Shown piece by piece: positions 4,846 to 54,454 of a stretch of 55,142 nucleotides of DNA. Numbering within the stretch: the stretch's first letter is position 1; every line of letters starts with the position of its first letter. The stretch is from a virus (Duplodnaviria; Heunggongvirae; Uroviricota; Caudoviricetes), in IMG/VR virus record IMGVR_UViG_2711768053_000019; one strand, 5' to 3'. The translations under genes and the position numbers were made by a program. Under the pieces are notes generated by a model. That model did not search any database and had not been told where the DNA came from. It worked only from the letters and a program-made list of their open reading frames with translations.

Positions 4846-5256
4846 TTAGCGATTCAGGCCGTTACCGCGTCCGTCGAGAAAAACTTCCACGAGCAAATCA
4901 CGGGTATAAGTGCGCTCGATGCCGCGATGCAGATATAGCCGTCCGCGTAAATTAGCTGATGCAGTCCAGGTACCATCTTTGTGTTTGACCAGCATTCCTG
5001 GCATGACCGCACCGCGATTAACGGTCTGCGTTCCGTAATGTTGATGAGCCATAAAAACTCCTGCCCGTAAGCTGGGCTGCTGAACATATAAAGACTTCTG
5101 CGCATATTCAGGCGGTGGATGGCCGCCGGTTGTCATAACTAAGCCGCCTCGTTGAAGCGACTGAGGTATGAAATGTTGAGTTAATTTCAGCTGGTCACAC
5201 CGACGTTCACGCGTCCGTTTCACCCCTCGCACTCCCCGAAGCCTGCTGAAATTCAA
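4846..5256 (-). CDS. Hypothetical protein, first gene downstream of putative pL; true start uncertain (TTG at 5256 or internal)
   Basis: 136-codon ORF; N-terminal Arg-rich stretch RLRGVRGVKRTRERR; occupies the position where lambda has N/kil but no recognisable N. Confidence 0.4.
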   Translation of the reverse strand: MNFSRLRGVRGVKRTRERRCDQLKLTQHFIPQSLQRGGLVMTTGGHPPPEYAQKSLYVQQPSLRAGVFMAHQHYGTQTVNRGAVMPGMLVKHKDGTWTASANLRGRLYLHRGIERTYTRDLLVEVFLDGRGNGLNR

Positions 5257-5329
5257 GCTGCGGATCTAAGCGGTCATCGCAACGGTGAATCAGGTGGTTG
5301 CCGTATCGTTGTGTTGTTGCGATATGGTG

Positions 5330-5375
5330 ATAATAGCTATTGCTATTGGTGATATCAATACTTATTGCTATTAGT
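5330..5375 (-). promoter_or_regulatory. Candidate leftward early promoter pL with operator-like repeats (OL)
   Basis: Minus strand TTGATA (5353-5358), 17-nt spacer, TATTAT (5330-5335); spacer carries GCTATTGCTATTGG; second TTATTGCTATTAG copy at 5362-5374. Confidence 0.45.
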
Positions 5376-5502: not shown

Positions 5503-5527
5503 AAAACCCGGCACGGTGGCCGGGTTT
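5503..5527. terminator. Bidirectional intrinsic terminator-like hairpin downstream of the cI operon
   Basis: AAAACCCGGC-ACGGTG-GCCGGGTTT: GC stem flanked by A-run and T-run. Confidence 0.5.
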
Positions 5528-5601: not shown

Positions 5602-6045
5602 TTAAGCACTAAAGAAAAAGTACATTGATAGCTTATAAAGTCCTGTTCCTGCAGCGATGATTGCTGGAACACCAAGCAATACCGCAAGCTTTGCGTCTGA
5701 AATCTTTCTATCGACAGCATCACTTGATGGCTTGTTTGTTAAGGATTCTTTTATAGAGTCCAGACGTGCAAGAATAGTTATCATATTTTTGTCGATAGCT
5801 TTAACGTCTGTTTTAAGTTCATCAACGTCTCGTTTGATATGAGCAACATCGGACTCCAGTTTTGCAACTTTTTCAGGCATGTTATCACTCCCAGACCCAC
5901 TGCTACCACTTGATTGTAGCATGTCCCATCTTTTTCCAGATATACCTGCTAGCTGGGAAGACGCACTGGAGTGCAAACAAAATGATTTTGCCGCCTTTGC
6001 AATTTTATCATTTAGGTTTGGAGCTTCGTAATAATCGTGTTTCAT
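5602..6045 (-). CDS. Coiled-coil protein with C-terminal transmembrane helix (147 aa), third gene of cI operon
   Basis: Gly/Ser linker, heptad-like EKVAKLESDVAHIKRDVDELKTDVKAIDK, hydrophobic tail LAVLLGVPAIIAAGTGLY; architecture resembles XhlA-like membrane proteins. Confidence 0.55.
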   Translation of the reverse strand: MKHDYYEAPNLNDKIAKAAKSFCLHSSASSQLAGISGKRWDMLQSSGSSGSGSDNMPEKVAKLESDVAHIKRDVDELKTDVKAIDKNMITILARLDSIKESLTNKPSSDAVDRKISDAKLAVLLGVPAIIAAGTGLYKLSMYFFFSA

Positions 6046-6057
6046 AATTAATTACGA

Positions 6058-6321
6058 TTAGTTTGTTTTAGCTTTGTCATGCTGGTCGCGAATGAAGTCA
6101 GCCAATTTAAGCATCAATTCTTCGGGCATTCTAATGGTTGCAATGTTGTACTTTATGTTCTCAACATCGTCACTTTCATCAACAGGCCATTCAGTTACAT
6201 TATGAAAAAAAGAAATTGAACCTAGGCGCTGAGAGCCGTCACCAAACGAAGAGTAGCCAAACGCGTCGGCGTATGCATCGACACAGTTATTTGATTTTTT
6301 AACAAGTGTTTTATTACTCAT
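6058..6321 (-). CDS. Small acidic hypothetical protein (87 aa), second gene of cI operon
   Basis: ATG with AAGG SD; 12 nt upstream of next gene; same strand as repressor. Confidence 0.5.
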   Translation of the reverse strand: MSNKTLVKKSNNCVDAYADAFGYSSFGDGSQRLGSISFFHNVTEWPVDESDDVENIKYNIATIRMPEELMLKLADFIRDQHDKAKTN

Positions 6322-6403
6322 TTTTTGCCTTTCCCGTAATGTTATTTTTTATAAGGTATTTTCTTCAGCGTATTACCCAAAAGCCTCATCAACACGCGGC
6401 TGA

Positions 6404-7096
6404 TTATCCGTGTTTTCTGTACGTCTGCGGCATGCTCCCAATAACCTTACCGAATATGAATACCCGGTTCATCTCGTCTTTCTCGATCGGGTCCCACGGT
6501 GAGTAGCTCTTGTTATCAGAGATAACCAGTAGCTTATCCTTCATCATTTGCAGGCGCTTTACATGGGCGGTGTCGTCATACAGAAACGCATAGATACCAT
6601 CACCGTCGAAAGATTTAACCGTGATATCAACGAACAGCAGATCACCTGGTTCGATCGTTCCTGACATGCTGTCACCGCGTACGTTAATGATGCGGATATT
6701 TTCTGCCTTCCTACCATCGAACATGTGACGAGCATCGTCAAACGAGTACTCAACCGAGCGTAGAACTTCTACAAACTCACGGTTGATGACTCCCGGCCCG
6801 GCACTCACTTCTATATCAAGAACGTCAATCTTGAAGTATTTTGAATGGCTGACAGCAGGCTTCCCTGATTGTTGACCGTCATTTCTCATCGGGCCTATGC
6901 CTGATGAGAGCCATTCTGTTCGAACACCCAATGCATTAGCTATTTCAACAATTTTTGTTGAGCCGCGAGCGTTGCCGCTTGTCAGTCTCCAGATTGTGGG
7001 TTGAGCTACGCCAGACGCCTTTGCAAGAGCGCCTTGAGACATTCCAGATTGTTCCATCGCTAGGTTTAAGCGATCAGCAAGAGTTTCTTTTTTCAT
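6404..7096 (-). CDS. cI: CI-like prophage repressor (HTH + LexA/S24-like C-terminal domain), about 231 aa
   Basis: N-terminal HTH (MSQGALAKASGVAQPTIWRL), C-terminal RGDSMSGTIEPGDLLFVD and KRL typical of S24 autocleaving repressors; ATG 7096 lies about 9 nt after a -10-like element (near-leaderless, as for lambda cI). Confidence 0.85.
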   Translation of the reverse strand: MKKETLADRLNLAMEQSGMSQGALAKASGVAQPTIWRLTSGNARGSTKIVEIANALGVRTEWLSSGIGPMRNDGQQSGKPAVSHSKYFKIDVLDIEVSAGPGVINREFVEVLRSVEYSFDDARHMFDGRKAENIRIINVRGDSMSGTIEPGDLLFVDITVKSFDGDGIYAFLYDDTAHVKRLQMMKDKLLVISDNKSYSPWDPIEKDEMNRVFIFGKVIGSMPQTYRKHG

Positions 7097-7102
7097 AAGT
7101 TT

Positions 7103-7176
7103 TAATTTATACGCTTGCGTATTGATGGTCAAAACACGTTTTGCTATTGCTTGGATTAATACGCATTGCTATTATT
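7103..7176. promoter_or_regulatory. Divergent immunity control region (pRM-like / pR-like promoters with operators)
   Basis: Minus TTGACC (7127-7132) and TATAAA-like -10 (7105-7111) before cI; plus TTGCTT (7147-7152), 17 nt, TATTAT (7170-7175) before cro; repeated TTGCTATT motifs and palindrome ATACGC-TT-GCGTAT (7109-7122). Confidence 0.5.
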
Positions 7177-7206: not shown

Positions 7207-7434
7207 ATGACAAATCAAACCATTCAACTCGCAATCAGTATTACAGGTAGTCAAAAACGACTGGCAGATCTATGCGGTGTAGCCCAACCCACAGTTTGGC
7301 GTTGGCTACACGGTGGCGGAATTGATGCCCGCTATGTAATGAAAATTGTCTCAGCCACTGGTGGAAAGATTAAACCAGCAGATATTCGTCCCGACCTCGC
7401 ACCATTGTTTAACGCGAGTAATTCTGCCGCCTAA
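7207..7434 (+). CDS. cro: Cro-like HTH regulator (YdaS-like), 75 aa
   Basis: HTH QKRLADLCGVAQPTVWRWLHGG; AGGAA SD 8 nt upstream; divergent from repressor. Confidence 0.75.
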   Translation: MTNQTIQLAISITGSQKRLADLCGVAQPTVWRWLHGGGIDARYVMKIVSATGGKIKPADIRPDLAPLFNASNSAA

Positions 7435-8090: not shown

Positions 8091-9020
8091 ATGGCAAACA
8101 CTGCTGAGATATTCAATTTTCCAGTGCCGGATGTGGCACAAAAGGAGCGGCGCGTGGCAGATCTCGACGATGGTTATACGCGCATTGCAAATGAGTTGCT
8201 GGAAGCTGTGATGCTGGCCGGATTAACACAGCACCAGCTTCTGGTCTTCCTGGCTGTCATGCGCAAAACATATGGCTTTAATAAAAGACTGGATTGGGTG
8301 AGCAACGAGCAACTTTCCGAATTGACCGGGATATTGCCGCACAAGTGTTCTGCTGCAAAAAGCGTTCTGGTAAAGCGTGGGATTCTTATTCAGAGCGGGC
8401 GGAATATCGGCATTAATAATGTGGTCAGTGAATGGTCAACATTACCCGAATCAGGTAAGAAAAATAAAGTTTACCTGAAAGAGGTAAATTTACCTGAATC
8501 AGGTAAGAAAAGTTTACCCAAATCAGGTAAAGGCGTTTACCCGAATCAGGTAAACACAAAAGACAAACTAACAAAAGACAATATAAAACCTTTTTCGTCC
8601 GAGAATTCTGGCGAATCCTCTGACCAGCCAGAAAACGATCTTCCTGTGGTGAAACCAGATGCTGCAATTCAGAGCGGCAGCAGGTGGGGGACAGCAGAAG
8701 ACCTGACCGCCGCAGAGTGGATGTTTGACATGGTGAAGACCATCGCGCCATCAGCCAGAAAACCGAATTTTGCAGGGTGGGCTAACGATATCCGCCTGAT
8801 GCGTGAACGTGACGGACGTAACCACCGCGACATGTGCGTGCTGTTCCGCTGGGCATGCCAGGACAACTTCTGGTCCGGTAACGTGCTAAGTCCGGCCAAA
8901 CTCCGCGACAAGTGGACCCAACTCGAAATCAACCGTAACAAGCAACAGGCAGGCGTGACAGCCGGAAAATCAAAACTCGACCTGACAAACACTGACTGGA
9001 TTTATGGGGTGGATTTATGA
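8091..9020 (+). CDS. O: Replication initiator O (lambda O-like), about 309 aa
   Basis: MANTAEIFNF...VADLDDGYTRIANELLEA resembles recalled lambda O N-terminus; GGGAGG SD; internal iterons encode the LPESGKK repeats. Confidence 0.85.
   Translation: MANTAEIFNFPVPDVAQKERRVADLDDGYTRIANELLEAVMLAGLTQHQLLVFLAVMRKTYGFNKRLDWVSNEQLSELTGILPHKCSAAKSVLVKRGILIQSGRNIGINNVVSEWSTLPESGKKNKVYLKEVNLPESGKKSLPKSGKGVYPNQVNTKDKLTKDNIKPFSSENSGESSDQPENDLPVVKPDAAIQSGSRWGTAEDLTAAEWMFDMVKTIAPSARKPNFAGWANDIRLMRERDGRNHRDMCVLFRWACQDNFWSGNVLSPAKLRDKWTQLEINRNKQQAGVTAGKSKLDLTNTDWIYGVDL
8442..8553 (+). repeat. Replication origin iterons inside O (five copies of TTACC(C/T)GAATCAGGTAA-like 17-mer) followed by AT-rich stretch
   Basis: Copies start at 8442, 8471 (degenerate), 8490, 8514, 8537; each is an inverted repeat TTACC...GGTAA; AT-rich region 8554-8600. 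Confidence 0.75.
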
Positions 9021-9718
9021 AAAACATCGCCGCACAGATGGTTAACTTTGATCGTGAGCAGATGCGTCGGATCGCCAATAACATGCCGGAACAGTACGAC
9101 GAAAAGCCGCAGGTACAGCTGGTAGCGCAGATCATCAATGGTGTGTTCAGCCAGTTACTGGCAACTTTCCCGGCGAGCCTGGCTAACCGGGACCAGAACG
9201 AACTGAACGAAATCCGCCGCCAGTGGGTGCTGGCTTTCCGGGAAAACGGGATCACCACAATGGAACAGGTTAACGCAGGAATGCGCGTAGCCCGTCGGCA
9301 GAATCGACCATTCCTGCCATCACCCGGGCAGTTTGTTGCCTGGTGCCGGGAAGAAACATCCGTTACCGCCGGGCTGCCAAACGCCAGCGAGCTGGTTGAT
9401 ATGGTTTACGAGTATTGCCGGAAGCGTGGCCTGTATCCGGACGCAGAGTCTTATCCATGGAAATCAAACGCGCACTACTGGTTGGTTACCAACTTGTACC
9501 AGAACATGCGGGCCAATGCGCTGACTGACGCGGAATTACGGCGCAAGGCTGCCGATGAACTGACCTGTATGACAGCGCGAATTAACCGTGGTGAGACGAT
9601 ACCTGAACCAGTAAAACAACTTCCTGTCATGGGCGGTAGACCTTTAAATCGTGCACAGGCTCTGGCGAAGATCGCAGAAATCAAAGCTAAGTTCGGACTG
9701 AAAGGAGCAAGAGCATGA
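9017..9718 (+). CDS. P: Replication protein P (DnaB helicase loader), 233 aa
   Basis: MKNIAAQMVNFDREQMRRIANNMPEQYDEKPQVQ... matches recalled lambda P; ATGA overlap with O. Confidence 0.95.
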   Translation: MKNIAAQMVNFDREQMRRIANNMPEQYDEKPQVQLVAQIINGVFSQLLATFPASLANRDQNELNEIRRQWVLAFRENGITTMEQVNAGMRVARRQNRPFLPSPGQFVAWCREETSVTAGLPNASELVDMVYEYCRKRGLYPDAESYPWKSNAHYWLVTNLYQNMRANALTDAELRRKAADELTCMTARINRGETIPEPVKQLPVMGGRPLNRAQALAKIAEIKAKFGLKGARA

Positions 9719-9835
9719 AAGACAACTGTGTTAAGTTCTCGTTAACATTAGGGGTAACATAGGGAGTATAAGATAGTGGAATGCATCATTTTATTGTTGC
9801 GAAAATGATCGAACCAACTGGATATCGTGTATCAT

Positions 9836-11809
9836 ATGGAACCGATGATAACTTTCATGGAATGTCTCGGTATATATATGAAAATTAGACCACAGCAGCA
9901 CCTAATTAACATCCTGACTTCAACCAAACAACATCATCCAAATTTTACTCTTTTTCTTGGTGCAGGTGCTAGTATCTCAAGTGGTGTTGATAGTGCTGGT
10001 GGGATGATAAGGCGCTGGAGAGATGCTTACACTCTAATGTATGGAGAAGATGCTCTCAAAAAACAAGTTTGGTACGATAAAGATAATGAGTATTCAGAGC
10101 TTTTTGAAGCATTATATGATCAACCAACTCAAAGAAGAGAATTTATTGAAAGTTGTATTACCGCAGCTAAACCATCTTGGGGATACGTTTATCTCACAAA
10201 TCTATTGGATAAAGGCCATTTTAATACAATTTTTACGACTAACTTCGATGATTTAGTCAATGAAGCTTGCTTTACCTTTTCTAATAATCTGAGACCAATA
10301 GTGTGTGCCCACGATTCAAGTATCAACAGCATACGTTTAACCACAGCTCGGCCAAAAATAATAAAATTACATGGTGATTTTTTATTTGACAATATCAAGA
10401 ATACTATAAGGGAGCTTGAGTCACTTGAAGATAACATGAGGGCCAAATTTAGACAGTTTGCAACTGAATTTGGCATGATCGTTATTGGGTACTCGGGACA
10501 CGACCGTTCAATTATGGATACTCTCAATACGTTATTGCATTCCGGTAGTTGTTTTCCTCATGGGATTTATTGGTGTATCCGTGACTCAGACACTGAAAAA
10601 CTTTCTGAGCAACTTAAAAATCTGGCCCGCTTTCCTCATTTTCATCTTATTAAAATTAATGGATTTGATGAGTTCATGGCTGAATTACATTACGCATTAG
10701 GCTGTAATTTGCAGCAAGAGGTAGTAGAGCCATACTCTGCATTATCTAATAAACTAGATAGATATTTCTCTATAGCTGAAGAAGATGACGCAGATGTCCA
10801 GCATGAGATTATTAAAAGAGATATGAATAATCTTGCTGATCATGTCAGGAGAGTGAATACAGTAAGCCAGTTTGTAAAAAAAATAAAAGTACTTCTTTCA
10901 GAGAAAGACTCATCGTTAGATGATAATTCGATCACTAAATCTTTAGAAATAATGTTAAAGGAAACTAAATTTGCTGGTTCTCCTGAGGGGATTCATTTTT
11001 ATAATACCCCCAATTATTTGATTGCAAACTCTGCATTTCGTGCTGGAGAGTATAATGAATGTGTAGAATATGCTACTAAACATCTGGCTAATGGGAAATC
11101 TCTCGAAACAGAAGTATTAATACTTCGTTCCTATATTCATTTGGATAATGATTCTGAAATACAAAAGTCAATAGAAAGAATAACAAGTTATAACAAAATG
11201 AATGATGGTGAAGTTGGCAAGCTTGTAAATGGATTAGTGGACTTAATGGATGCTAAAAAATTCAAAATTGCGAATAGCCTTATGGACATACTTGAATCCC
11301 GAACAATACCGTCTAAACATAAGCAGTTATTGCTTATAAATAGAGTTCTTTGCAACAAATTACAAAAGCAGCCGCTTTCAGCAAAACAGCAACAAGAGCT
11401 TGAGGAAGTGCTGAATGAAGTGATAGATAAAAACGAAGCTTGGCTTGCTCTGGGGGCTGCTATACTTTTAGAAAAATGGGACATTGCTGAAGAAGTGCTA
11501 TCAGCATTAGATGAAACTGAGATAGTTACAATATTGACGCAATCAATGCCGATTTTTGACTTGATTTCTACAGAGTTTTATGAAAAGGTCAAGCTAGTAG
11601 CTATAGAGCGTGGTTATAACGTTTCATTCGAAGAAGAAACGGAGTTACCAGAGGTTGTTCCTGCTGAGGATGAGACTCAAAGTCTCAGTCCTGATGTGAG
11701 AGAAATACCTACAGATAAAAAGAAAGCCATAACTCACAAATCAGCAGACAATGATGAGGCATTTGATGGATTACGCACTGGCGAAGAAAGTATAAGCAAA
11801 CCAGCTTAA
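9836..11809 (+). CDS. SIR2-like domain protein with long helical C-terminal region (about 657 aa); candidate single-gene anti-phage NADase
   Basis: LFLGAGASISSG, FTTNFDD, IKLHGDF and VIGYSGHD align with conserved SIR2/ThsA-type motifs (GAGxS, TNYD, HG); no clear SD so start 9827-9875 is uncertain; region visibly AT-rich. Confidence 0.7.
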   Translation: MEPMITFMECLGIYMKIRPQQHLINILTSTKQHHPNFTLFLGAGASISSGVDSAGGMIRRWRDAYTLMYGEDALKKQVWYDKDNEYSELFEALYDQPTQRREFIESCITAAKPSWGYVYLTNLLDKGHFNTIFTTNFDDLVNEACFTFSNNLRPIVCAHDSSINSIRLTTARPKIIKLHGDFLFDNIKNTIRELESLEDNMRAKFRQFATEFGMIVIGYSGHDRSIMDTLNTLLHSGSCFPHGIYWCIRDSDTEKLSEQLKNLARFPHFHLIKINGFDEFMAELHYALGCNLQQEVVEPYSALSNKLDRYFSIAEEDDADVQHEIIKRDMNNLADHVRRVNTVSQFVKKIKVLLSEKDSSLDDNSITKSLEIMLKETKFAGSPEGIHFYNTPNYLIANSAFRAGEYNECVEYATKHLANGKSLETEVLILRSYIHLDNDSEIQKSIERITSYNKMNDGEVGKLVNGLVDLMDAKKFKIANSLMDILESRTIPSKHKQLLLINRVLCNKLQKQPLSAKQQQELEEVLNEVIDKNEAWLALGAAILLEKWDIAEEVLSALDETEIVTILTQSMPIFDLISTEFYEKVKLVAIERGYNVSFEEETELPEVVPAEDETQSLSPDVREIPTDKKKAITHKSADNDEAFDGLRTGEESISKPA

Positions 11810-53878: not shown

Positions 53879-54454
53879 ATGGATTTCAGAATGAGTGAAC
53901 AACCACGGACCATAACAATTTATAATCTGCTGGCCGGAACTAATGAATTTATTGGTGAAGGTGACGCATACATTCCGCCTCATACAGGTCTGCCAGCAAA
54001 CAGTACCGATATTGCACCGCCAGATATTCCGGCTGGTTTCGTGGCTGTTTTCAACAGTGATGAGTCATCGTGGCATCTCGTTGAAGATCATCGGGGTAAA
54101 ACGGTTTATGACGTGGCTTCCGGCGACGCGTTATTTATTTCTGAACTCGGCTCATTACCGGAAAATGTCACCTGGTTATCCCCGGAAGGGGAGTTTCAGA
54201 AGTGGAACGGCACAGCCTGGGTGAAGGATACGGAAGCAGAAAAACTGTTCCGGATCCGGGAGGCGGAAGAAACAAAAAACAGCCTGATGCAGGTAGCCAG
54301 TGAGCATATAGCGCCGCTTCAGGATGCTGTGGATCTGGAGATCGCAACGGAGAAAGAAACCTTGTTGCTGGAAGCCTGGAAAAAGTATCGGGTGTTGCTG
54401 AACCGTGTTGATACATCAACTGCACCGGATATTGAATGGCCAGCCCTACCGTAG
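53879..54454 (+). CDS. tfa: Tail fibre assembly protein Tfa, about 191 aa
   Basis: [54 protein letters not shown]... lambda Tfa by recall. Confidence 0.8.

What the first reader, a model, noticed from the sequence alone, without database searches (positions are those of the whole stretch)
5602..7096. Repressor operon carries two extra genes in the position lambda uses for rexA/rexB
Downstream of the cI-like repressor and on the same strand are an 87-aa acidic protein (6058-6321) and a 147-aa coiled-coil protein with a C-terminal transmembrane helix (5602-6045), followed by a bidirectional terminator (5503-5527). Genes co-transcribed with the lysogenic repressor are expressed in lysogens and are classic locations for exclusion/abortive-infection modules; a soluble partner plus a membrane protein fits that pattern. 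Neither protein resembles RexA/RexB.
Basis: inference. Interest (0 to 1): 0.55.

Follow-up and report, generated by a model that had tools for sequence, protein, structure and literature searches.

The report
Uncharacterised two-gene cassette behind prophage repressor
A lambda-like E. coli prophage carries two real but uncharacterised genes, a small soluble protein and a membrane-anchored coiled-coil protein, in the slot where lambda keeps rexA/rexB; relatives sit behind prophage repressors across enterobacteria, which makes the pair a good untested candidate for a new anti-phage module.

Summary
ORF87 (6058-6321, acidic) and ORF147 (5602-6045, coiled coil plus C-terminal transmembrane helix) lie on the repressor strand. 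They sit between the cI-like gene and an intrinsic terminator, inside an immunity region bounded by oR- and oL-like operators. Only the word "bidirectional" for the terminator fails.

Both genes are under purifying selection (dN/dS 0.05-0.23). Neither matches Pfam, NCBIfam, PADLOC or solved structures; PHROGs lists both families as function unknown.

Comparative work adds three points:
- ORF87 plus the first ~57 codons of ORF147 also occur directly behind mnt in P22-like phages, in the region that holds sieA in P22.
- ORF147 belongs to an Enterobacterales-only superfamily. Each member follows a small partner gene (at least four unrelated families). N-terminal adaptors track the partner, while coil/TM tails recombine.
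- 81 of 99 non-redundant loci have a cI or Mnt repressor just upstream on the same strand.

With the same cI, the slot is empty in one phage and holds the candidate defence system PDC-M11 in another.

Function is inferred, not shown. My best reading is a lysogen-expressed two-part anti-phage module that acts at the inner membrane, Rex-like in logic but not in ancestry. It is a new variant of a known kind, of moderate interest.

The parts
7104..7132 (-). pRM-like promoter (TTGACC, 17-nt spacer, TAAATT). The -10 element ends 7 nt before the cI ATG, so the cI mRNA would be leaderless or nearly so, as in lambda.
   Evidence: Promoter scan; sequence read.
7165..7173 (-). oR operator-like motif AATAGCAAT, between the divergent cro (7207-7434, +) and cI genes.
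   Evidence: Motif search: 3 sites in the window, 0.6 expected by chance.
6404..7096 (-). cI-like repressor with an N-terminal HTH and a C-terminal S24 autopeptidase domain. The immunity-specific part ends near 6960; the linker and S24 domain are shared with a second immunity type.
   Evidence: Pfam Peptidase_S24 1.5e-18 and HTH_3 1.5e-6. RefSeq annotation of the identical region in E. coli SE11. Mosaic joint by blastn.
6322..6403 (-). cI-ORF87 spacer with no terminator and no promoter-like site. The last 27 nt, which include the GGGAAAGG ribosome-binding site, travel with the cassette.
6058..6321 (-). ORF87, a small acidic soluble protein predicted to form three long beta strands and a C-terminal helix. 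It is partner family A of the module.
   Evidence: phrog_4231 7e-54. AlphaFold2 pLDDT 78. pI 4.96 and dN/dS 0.05-0.16. Always followed by a coiled-coil plus TM gene in 37 IMG/VR loci.
5875..6045 (-). ORF147 N-terminal adaptor, about residues 1-57: a short helix and a disordered Ser/Gly-rich linker. It is inherited together with ORF87.
   Evidence: Homology with the mnt-context cassette covers window 6348-5873 only. AlphaFold2 secondary structure. The start lies 12 nt after the ORF87 stop.
5734..5880 (-). ORF147 coiled-coil stalk (residues 56-104). It begins with the superfamily hallmark (M)xExRVAKLExDVxxIK.
   Evidence: heptad pattern read from the sequence.
5626..5694 (-). ORF147 C-terminal transmembrane helix (about residues 118-140), a tail anchor with conserved P127, G133, T134 and K138.
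   Evidence: Kyte-Doolittle maximum 1.80. Invariant columns in alignment A1.
5504..5527 (-). Intrinsic terminator that closes the cI-ORF87-ORF147 unit (the tImm equivalent). It is convincing on the minus strand only.
5330..5372 (-). oL/pL region: two AATAGCAAT operator-like motifs (5339, 5364) overlapping a pL-like promoter (5358-5330).

Best explanation
ORF87 and ORF147 form a two-part module expressed in the lysogen. It is transcribed with the repressor from the pRM-like promoter and ended by the terminator at 5527-5504.

ORF147 is a tail-anchored inner-membrane protein. Its N-terminal adaptor, flexible Ser/Gly linker and coiled-coil stalk face the cytoplasm, and a single conserved C-terminal helix sits in the membrane. 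ORF87 is a small acidic soluble protein that docks on the ORF147 adaptor and acts as the specificity or sensor subunit.

I propose that the complex protects the lysogen against other phages in a Rex-like (abortive-infection) way. A cue from a superinfecting phage, read by ORF87 and the adaptor, would change how the coiled-coil stalks associate. The transmembrane helices would then cluster and permeabilise or depolarise the inner membrane, which stops the infection.

Shown by sequence and comparison:
- gene reality, position and probable co-transcription;
- soluble plus tail-anchored architecture;
- co-inheritance of ORF87 with the adaptor;
- strong linkage of the superfamily to prophage repressors.

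Inferred only: the physical interaction, the anti-phage role, and the membrane-permeabilising step.

Confidence that the module has some superinfection-related role is about 0.55. Confidence in the abortive, membrane-effector version specifically is about 0.35.
For: Position and operon structure.

Real, constrained genes: PHROG hits and dN/dS 0.05-0.23.

Same cassette behind a second lysogen-expressed repressor: it sits directly behind mnt in Salmonella phage UPF_BP1 and in E. coli and Salmonella P22-like prophages, with start/stop overlap. This is the hypervariable gene 16 to gene 9 region that holds sieA in P22 (PMC10883804, PMC2629481).

Mosaic joints: ORF87 plus codons 1-57 of ORF147 move as one unit, while at least five different coil/TM tails are attached.

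Superfamily contexts: in E. coli, Klebsiella, Enterobacter, Serratia, Phaseolibacter and Symbiopectobacterium the order is always repressor, then small partner, then coil-TM gene. In the systematic count, 81 of 99 non-redundant loci have cI or Mnt just upstream on the same strand.

Partner diversity: there are at least four sequence-unrelated partner families, each with its own N-terminal adaptor type. This is the sensor/effector shuffling typical of defence systems.

Variable slot: with the same cI the slot is empty, or holds PDC-M11 at 2.9e-133 and 6.8e-52.

Precedent: repressor-co-transcribed pairs of a soluble and a membrane protein that abort infection are lambda RexAB and CarolAnn gp43/44 (PMC6426606).
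Against: - No experimental phenotype exists for any family member, and there is no hit to any PADLOC model.
- ORF147 has one transmembrane helix, not a polytopic channel like RexB. Pore formation would need oligomerisation, which is untested.
- The transmembrane types are diverse, so no single conserved pore-lining sequence exists.
- The ORF147 model has low confidence (pLDDT 61).
- The locus survey is drawn from IMG/VR and pattern-seeded searches. It is neither an unbiased nor an independent sample.
- The single 'fusion' protein P0070 is an in-frame deletion between two DVENIK-coding repeats in one genome. It is not good Rosetta-stone evidence.
Confidence: 0.35

Rival explanations
1. Superinfection exclusion at the entry step (SieA-, Imm- or HK97 gp15-like). 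[quoted passage not shown]
For: - The cassette occupies the gene 16 to gene 9 'ant moron' behind mnt, the region that holds sieA in P22.
- The proteins are small, lack any enzymatic domain and include an inner-membrane component.
- Known entry blockers are similarly small, prophage-expressed membrane proteins (PMC10883804).
Against: - Almost all of ORF147 is predicted to be cytoplasmic, with only about 7-10 residues beyond the membrane. Known entry blockers are polytopic or expose a periplasmic domain.
- The same ORF87/adaptor module occurs in long-tailed lambda-like prophages and in short-tailed P22-like prophages, whose entry machineries differ.
- ORF147 has no similarity to SieA and lacks its FxRYPxEAxxFNK motif (sequence read against PMC10883804).
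Confidence: 0.2
2. Lysogenic conversion or a prophage-regulatory function unrelated to other phages. Examples: a membrane-tethered complex that alters host envelope physiology, or one that sequesters a host or phage factor to tune induction or lysogen fitness.
For: - Genes expressed from prophages are not all defences; lambda bor and lom are examples from general knowledge.
- No defence-database hit.
- Some family members lie outside immunity regions. Examples are at prophage ends next to tail genes in Pantoea and Serratia, and as single genes beside an AraC-like gene in the Pantoea chromosome.
Against: - Rapid shuffling of partners, adaptors and tails, together with presence/absence polymorphism in a slot that also holds a candidate defence system, fits conflict-driven cargo better than housekeeping conversion.
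- The family is confined to temperate-phage contexts in Enterobacterales.
Confidence: 0.2
3. XhlA-like lysis accessory protein. ORF147 would help or time holin-mediated lysis of its own phage, and ORF87 would regulate it.
For: - The architecture, a coiled coil followed by a C-terminal transmembrane helix, is that of XhlA.
- Sequence hints are weak: PF10779 E 0.053 for this protein; 3 of 30 superfamily members reach up to 2.2e-5; PHROG 'hemolysin' families score 1.3e-4 and 1.3e-3.
Against: - The score is far below the Pfam cut-off (14.1 against 34.7 bits).
- The gene is in the immunity region on the repressor strand, not in the late or lysis cluster (the window's large late-region ORFs lie from about 16.4 kb onwards; they were listed but not identified by family search).
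- It is positioned for expression in the lysogen, when lysis functions must stay silent.
- Other coiled-coil families score equally well, which points to compositional similarity.
Confidence: 0.07
4. Toxin-antitoxin-like addiction pair that stabilises the prophage. ORF147 would be a membrane toxin and ORF87 its neutraliser.
For: - Two small, tightly coupled genes (12-nt gap here; overlapping stop and start in relatives), one soluble and acidic, the other membrane-active in principle.
- Many toxin-antitoxin pairs also act as abortive-infection systems, so this rival overlaps with the best explanation.
Against: - No toxin-antitoxin family match.
- The partner gene is upstream and structurally ordered, without the features of a labile antitoxin.
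- Coil-TM genes occur alone in Pantoea chromosomes without an obvious neutraliser.
Confidence: 0.08

Closest known systems
Lambda RexA/RexB
   Same: - Two genes immediately downstream of cI on the same strand, between cI and oL/pL, closed by a terminator.
- One soluble and one inner-membrane protein.
- Expected to be expressed in the lysogen from pRM.
   Different: - No sequence similarity: RexA's DUF4747-type domain and the RexB family are not detected at E<=1.
- ORF87 is 87 aa, whereas RexA is much larger (about 280 aa, from memory).
- ORF147 has one C-terminal transmembrane helix plus a cytoplasmic coiled coil, whereas RexB is a polytopic (four-TM) protein.
- No phenotype is known.
P22 SieA (superinfection exclusion, gene 16 to gene 9 'ant moron')
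   Same: - The ORF87/coil-TM cassette lies behind mnt in the gene 16 to gene 9 region of P22-like phages, the region that holds sieA in P22.
- It is prophage-expressed and has an inner-membrane component.
   Different: - SieA is a single polytopic membrane protein with a conserved FxRYPxEAxxFNK motif (PMC10883804). The cassette here has two genes, a tail-anchored protein and no such motif.
- There is no sequence similarity.
Gordonia phage CarolAnn gp43/gp44 and mycobacteriophage Sbash gp30/gp31
   Same: A soluble plus membrane pair. In CarolAnn it is co-transcribed with the repressor and confers heterotypic abortive defence (PMC6426606). This is a functional precedent for the proposed logic.
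   Different: - Those pairs are distant RexAB relatives: a DUF4747 protein of about 370 aa and a four-TM protein.
- They come from actinobacteriophages and are unrelated in sequence and size to ORF87 and ORF147.
XhlA (PF10779; Bacillus PBSX lysis-associated membrane protein)
   Same: A short protein made of a coiled coil followed by a C-terminal transmembrane helix. There are weak profile hits for a minority of superfamily members.
   Different: - The score is below the family threshold for this protein.
- The genomic location (immunity region, not the lysis cassette) and the obligatory upstream partner gene differ.
PADLOC candidate system PDC-M11 (A+B), as in Escherichia phage 4A7
   Same: It occupies the identical slot downstream of a 97%-identical cI gene and is also a two-gene cargo.
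   Different: The proteins are unrelated: a 353-aa protein and an ASCH-domain protein. PDC-M11 is itself only a candidate defence system.

Membership tests
Lambda RexAB | RexA-type sensor protein (DUF4747-like domain) | tested here: not met
   ORF87 has no Pfam, NCBIfam or PADLOC match at E<=1. That RexA carries DUF4747 is stated in PMC6426606.
Lambda RexAB | RexB-type polytopic (four-TM) membrane protein | tested here: not met
   ORF147 has a single hydrophobic segment at residues 118-136, a helix/coil model and no RexB family match.
Lambda RexAB | Located between cI and oL/pL on the cI strand and co-transcribed from pRM | tested here: met
   Gene order, flanking operator motifs, promoter-like sites and the terminator support this; there is no terminator or promoter in the cI-ORF87 spacer. 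Co-transcription is inferred from sequence, not measured.
Lambda RexAB | Abortive exclusion of specific phages with membrane depolarisation | not testable with these tools
   This needs plating and membrane-potential assays.
P22 SieA | Polytopic inner-membrane protein with the conserved FxRYPxEAxxFNK motif (PMC10883804) | tested here: not met
   The motif is absent from the ORF87 and ORF147 sequences. ORF147 has one transmembrane helix only.
P22 SieA | Resides between genes 16 and 9 of P22-like phages | tested here: met
   This holds for the homologous cassette in UPF_BP1 and in P22-like prophages. The window copy itself is in a lambda-like immunity region.
XhlA (PF10779) | Score at or above the Pfam gathering threshold (34.7 bits) | tested here: not met
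   14.1 bits, E 0.053. Only 3 of 30 superfamily members match, at best E 2.2e-5.
XhlA (PF10779) | Coiled coil followed by a C-terminal transmembrane helix | tested here: met
XhlA (PF10779) | Encoded in the lysis cassette next to holin and endolysin genes | tested here: not met
   The gene lies in the immunity region. The window's large late-region ORFs start about 10 kb away, from about 16.4 kb; those ORFs were listed but not identified by any family search.
Known or candidate defence systems in PADLOC-DB v2 | Match to any system protein model | tested here: not met
   ORF147 gives only sub-significant coiled-coil matches (E>=0.0037 to PbeC, LmuB and JetC coils). ORF87 gives none. Partner families pB, pC and pD give none.
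Repressor-linked partner + coil-TM module (family defined here) | A small upstream partner gene tightly coupled to a gene encoding an N-terminal adaptor, a Gly/Ser linker, a coiled coil starting (M)xExRVAKLExDVxxIK, and a C-terminal transmembrane helix | tested here: met
   Alignments A1 and A3. Neighbour analysis.
Repressor-linked partner + coil-TM module (family defined here) | Located immediately downstream of a prophage repressor (cI or Mnt) on the same strand | tested here: met
   The window copy meets this. So do 81 of 99 non-redundant loci.

The most novel reading that the evidence does not exclude
The pair represents a previously unrecognised, widespread class of prophage immune module in Enterobacterales. 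Tail-anchored coiled-coil membrane proteins would carry interchangeable cytoplasmic 'heads' (at least four unrelated partner families with matching adaptors) and interchangeable membrane 'tails'. A phage cue at the head would be converted into a membrane event through the coiled-coil stalk. That mechanism would be unrelated to RexAB, SieA or any catalogued defence system, and it would be specifically tied to repressor operons (cI and Mnt).
Probability: 0.3. Interest if true: 0.75.

Novelty: new variant of a known kind. Interest (0 to 1): 0.55.

Why it matters
If the module is a defence, it would add a family to the repressor-linked prophage exclusion systems known since RexAB. That family is compact (about 230 codons), has no enzymatic domain and is highly modular.

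It is present in about 3% of complete E. coli genomes, including many O26/O111/O103 STEC lineages. It is also found in Salmonella, Klebsiella, Enterobacter, Citrobacter, Serratia and Pantoea prophages.

It could therefore influence phage host range, phage-therapy outcomes and competition between prophages in clinically important bacteria.

The natural combinatorial library of partners, adaptors and tails offers ready-made chimeras for dissecting how a single-pass, tail-anchored protein could sense and respond to infection.

The comparative result also shows that the cI-downstream and mnt-downstream slots exchange the same cargo. This links the two classic exclusion loci of lambda and P22.

Tried and rejected
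- Family libraries (Pfam, NCBIfam, PADLOC) for both proteins gave nothing significant. PHROGs gave only 'unknown function' families.
- Sequence search of PDB with family profiles returned only weak coiled-coil matches, such as dynein light chain and P22-like tail-needle proteins at E 0.003-0.2. I treat these as compositional.
- The ORF147 model has low confidence (pLDDT 61), so I did not use it for fold search.
- I suspected that ORF87 and the 93-aa partner family are distant homologues, because both end in a strand-helix motif. hhalign gave probability 1.2% and E 0.045, so I dropped the idea. A recollected resemblance to DUF3467 was not borne out by Pfam.
- I first read protein P0070 as a natural ORF87-coilTM fusion. 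It is a one-genome in-frame deletion between two DVENIK-coding repeats, so I discounted it.
- Literature: searches by accession numbers, locus tag and PHROG ids found nothing. The DefensePredictor supplements had no hit. Brenes & Laub 2025 (Cell Host Microbe 33:1004) could not be retrieved, so overlap with their prophage defence systems is unchecked.
- The Rfam scan of the window found no RNA family in the immunity region.
- The search for related loci with the most diverse alignment (A3) failed for lack of conserved columns. A1, P0280 and P0255 were used instead.
Full report
**1. What is in the window**

The window is a lambda-like prophage. It encodes an integrase, exo/bet/gam, an immunity region, O/P-type replication genes and a long late region. 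In that region the large ORFs match terminase, tape measure and J-like tail proteins in size and order, but I did not scan them against any family library. The region of the finding is 100% identical to chromosomal prophages of many E. coli strains.

Read on the minus strand, the order is:
- a pRM-like promoter at 7132-7104, whose -10 element ends 7 nt before the repressor ATG at 7096;
- a cI-like repressor at 6404-7096 (HTH_3 plus Peptidase_S24);
- an 82-nt spacer;
- ORF87 at 6058-6321;
- a 12-nt gap;
- ORF147 at 5602-6045;
- a 74-nt gap;
- a GC-rich hairpin with a U-run at 5527-5504;
- a pL-like promoter at 5358-5330.

The 9-mer AATAGCAAT occurs only three times in 55 kb: twice at the pL-like promoter and once between cro and cI. 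The three genes therefore sit between oR and oL, as cI-rexA-rexB do in lambda. The cI-ORF87 spacer has no terminator-like fold (z -0.07) and no promoter-like site. The terminator is convincing on the minus strand only, because the plus-strand reading lacks a T-run.

**2. The two proteins**

ORF87:
- It is acidic (pI 4.96) and has no hydrophobic segment.
- AlphaFold2 (pLDDT 78) predicts three long beta strands and a C-terminal helix.

ORF147:
- It has a short N-terminal helix, a disordered Ser/Gly-rich linker, a helix at residues 56-104 with a regular heptad pattern, and a C-terminal hydrophobic helix.
- Basic residues precede that helix and fewer than ten residues follow it. The simplest topology is a tail anchor with the bulk of the protein in the cytoplasm. 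This is an inference.

Database status:
- Neither protein matches Pfam, NCBIfam, PADLOC or any solved structure beyond generic coiled-coil noise.
- PHROGs places them in phrog_4231 and phrog_3556, both of unknown function.

Both ORFs are genuine genes: dN/dS against diverged copies is 0.05-0.23.

**3. Comparative genomics**

The same cassette sits behind mnt.
- In Salmonella phage UPF_BP1 and several E. coli and Salmonella P22-like prophages, an ORF87 homologue (95% identical) starts inside the end of mnt. It is followed by a 149-aa coiled-coil/TM protein. The pair lies between mnt and gene 16.
- That region is the hypervariable 'ant moron', which in P22 holds the exclusion gene sieA (PMC2629481, PMC10883804).

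The mosaic joints define modules.
- DNA homology between the window and the mnt context spans only 6348-5873. That is 27 nt of leader, ORF87 and the first ~57 codons of ORF147. The coiled-coil/TM part is a different type, 35% identical overall.
- Against a second cI immunity type, homology starts inside cI at 6960 and runs through the whole cassette.
- ORF87 and the N-terminal adaptor of ORF147 are therefore one exchange unit, and the stalk and anchor are another. This is the main argument that ORF87 binds the adaptor.
- An apparent natural fusion (P0070) turned out to be a single-genome deletion between two DVENIK-coding repeats. I give it no weight.

ORF147 belongs to a wider superfamily.
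- Profile searches recover a family confined to Enterobacterales, with every member annotated 'hypothetical' and none carrying a Pfam domain.
- Its hallmark is a Gly-rich linker followed by (M)xExRVAKLExDVxxIK, a coiled coil and one C-terminal TM helix of several interchangeable types.
- In lambdoid prophages of E. coli, Klebsiella oxytoca, K. pneumoniae, Enterobacter, Serratia, Phaseolibacter and Symbiopectobacterium the order is invariably cro (divergent), cI, small partner gene, coil-TM gene.

Partner genes are diverse.
- The partners fall into at least four families without detectable mutual similarity:
  - ORF87-like;
  - a 93-aa family;
  - a Zn-ribbon family;
  - a 140-160-aa beta-rich family.
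- The N-terminal region of the coil-TM protein differs according to the partner family.

Repressor linkage is strong.
- I classified 214 loci, which reduce to 107 non-redundant gene triplets, with HMMs built here.
- Of the 99 triplets with enough upstream sequence, 75 have a cI/S24 repressor and 6 have an Mnt within 1.5 kb upstream on the same strand.
- The sample comes from IMG/VR plus pattern-seeded searches, so the 82% is indicative, not an unbiased frequency.

**4. The slot is variable cargo space**

Phages with a 96-97% identical cI either have nothing between cI and the terminator (PhiR34_1) or carry a different two-gene insert (phage 4A7 and relatives). That insert matches the PADLOC candidate defence system PDC-M11A/B at 2.9e-133 and 6.8e-52. 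The epsilon34 genome paper had already noted two orphan genes downstream of its repressor 'like rexA and rexB' (PMC2629481).

**5. Mechanism**

Nothing in the sequences is enzymatic. The evidence supports a membrane-anchored, cytoplasm-facing complex that is produced in lysogens and whose head and tail parts are shuffled among phages. Systems with this expression pattern and a soluble plus membrane composition that have been tested abort infection by membrane depolarisation; these are lambda RexAB and CarolAnn gp43/44 (PMC6426606).

I therefore favour a Rex-like logic. ORF87 and the adaptor would read a phage cue, and the stalk would transmit it to the TM helices, which cluster and compromise the membrane. 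My confidence is about 0.35 for this version and about 0.55 for any superinfection-related role.

The rivals are:
- an entry block at the inner membrane (0.2), favoured by the location in the region that holds sieA but disfavoured by the cytoplasmic topology and by the presence of the same head module in both long-tailed and short-tailed phages;
- a non-defence lysogenic-conversion or regulatory role (0.2);
- a toxin-antitoxin-like pair (0.08);
- an XhlA-like lysis accessory (0.07), disfavoured by location and expression context.

**6. Comparison with known systems, and novelty**

The pair works in the place of rexAB and plausibly in its manner, but it is not a member of the Rex, SieA or XhlA families. 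The defining sequence or topology features were tested and not met (see the membership table).

No paper in the searchable library mentions these proteins, and the DefensePredictor supplements do not list them. One relevant paper, Brenes & Laub 2025, could not be read, so prior naming cannot be fully excluded.

I class the finding as a new variant of a known kind: a repressor-linked prophage exclusion cassette built from new protein families with an unusual modular architecture.

**7. Verdict**

The positional interpretation is supported and considerably strengthened by comparative data. The functional claim remains an inference.

Interest is 0.55. A specialist would expect cargo in this slot. 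The surprising points are the breadth, the modularity and the dual cI/mnt linkage of an entirely uncharacterised family, which occurs in about 3% of complete E. coli genomes (155 to 198 of 5,426). These make it a worthwhile and easily testable candidate.

Noticed in passing
window 9827-11809 (+): A 660-aa ORF lies directly after the replication gene P (9017-9718). In E. coli SE11 and phage 4A7 the gene at this position is ren. It matches PADLOC SIR2 models (Aga_SIR2-PNTD 5.2e-63; candidate system PDC-S65 1.1e-33). It is probably a second, independent defence cargo in this prophage.
   Followed up: partly
L060 1503-2919 (Escherichia phage 4A7, NC_049946) and related phages: With a 96-97% identical cI, the cI-downstream slot holds a different two-gene insert that matches PADLOC candidate system PDC-M11A/B (353 aa plus an ASCH-domain protein). 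In phage PhiR34_1 (L059) the slot is empty.
   Followed up: yes
window 4846-5330 (-): No N-like antiterminator ORF is evident between the pL-like promoter (5358-5330) and the kil homologue (68 aa, ATG at 5052, as annotated in E. coli SE11). The kil reading frame stays open upstream to a TTG at 5256 and there encodes an arginine-rich stretch (RLRGVRGVKRTRERR). Rfam found no put-like RNA at gathering threshold.
   Followed up: partly
window 54222-54420 (+): A full-length match to Rfam RF02111 (IS009 RNA, 218 bits, E 2e-53) lies near the tail-fibre end of the prophage.
   Followed up: no
L010 5001-5405 (E. coli P22-like prophage, protein P0070): A 134-aa ORF joins ORF87 residues 1-57 to a type-b coil-TM tail. 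The junction lies at a DVENIK-coding repeat present in both parent genes, so it looks like a recombinational in-frame deletion. It was seen in one genome only.
   Followed up: yes
L013-L016 (Pantoea chromosomes), L015 3561-4300: Coil-TM family genes occur without a partner gene beside an AraC-like 291-aa gene. In L015 two tandem coil-TM paralogues of 99 and 136 aa are present. These may be domesticated or decaying copies outside prophage immunity regions.
   Followed up: no
L019 3634-4311 (Symbiopectobacterium MAG): Downstream of a cI-like repressor, the partner gene is truncated to 53 aa and the coil-TM gene is split by a frameshift into 127 and 60 aa. The module is decaying in a symbiont genome.
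   Followed up: no
window 5602-6045 (-); NCBI cluster members: Many database entries annotate the ORF147 homologue from an internal Met as a 106-aa protein, and one source names it 'Lpp'. Conservation of residues 1-41, low dN/dS and the mosaic joint argue for the 147-aa form. There is no lipobox.
   Followed up: partly
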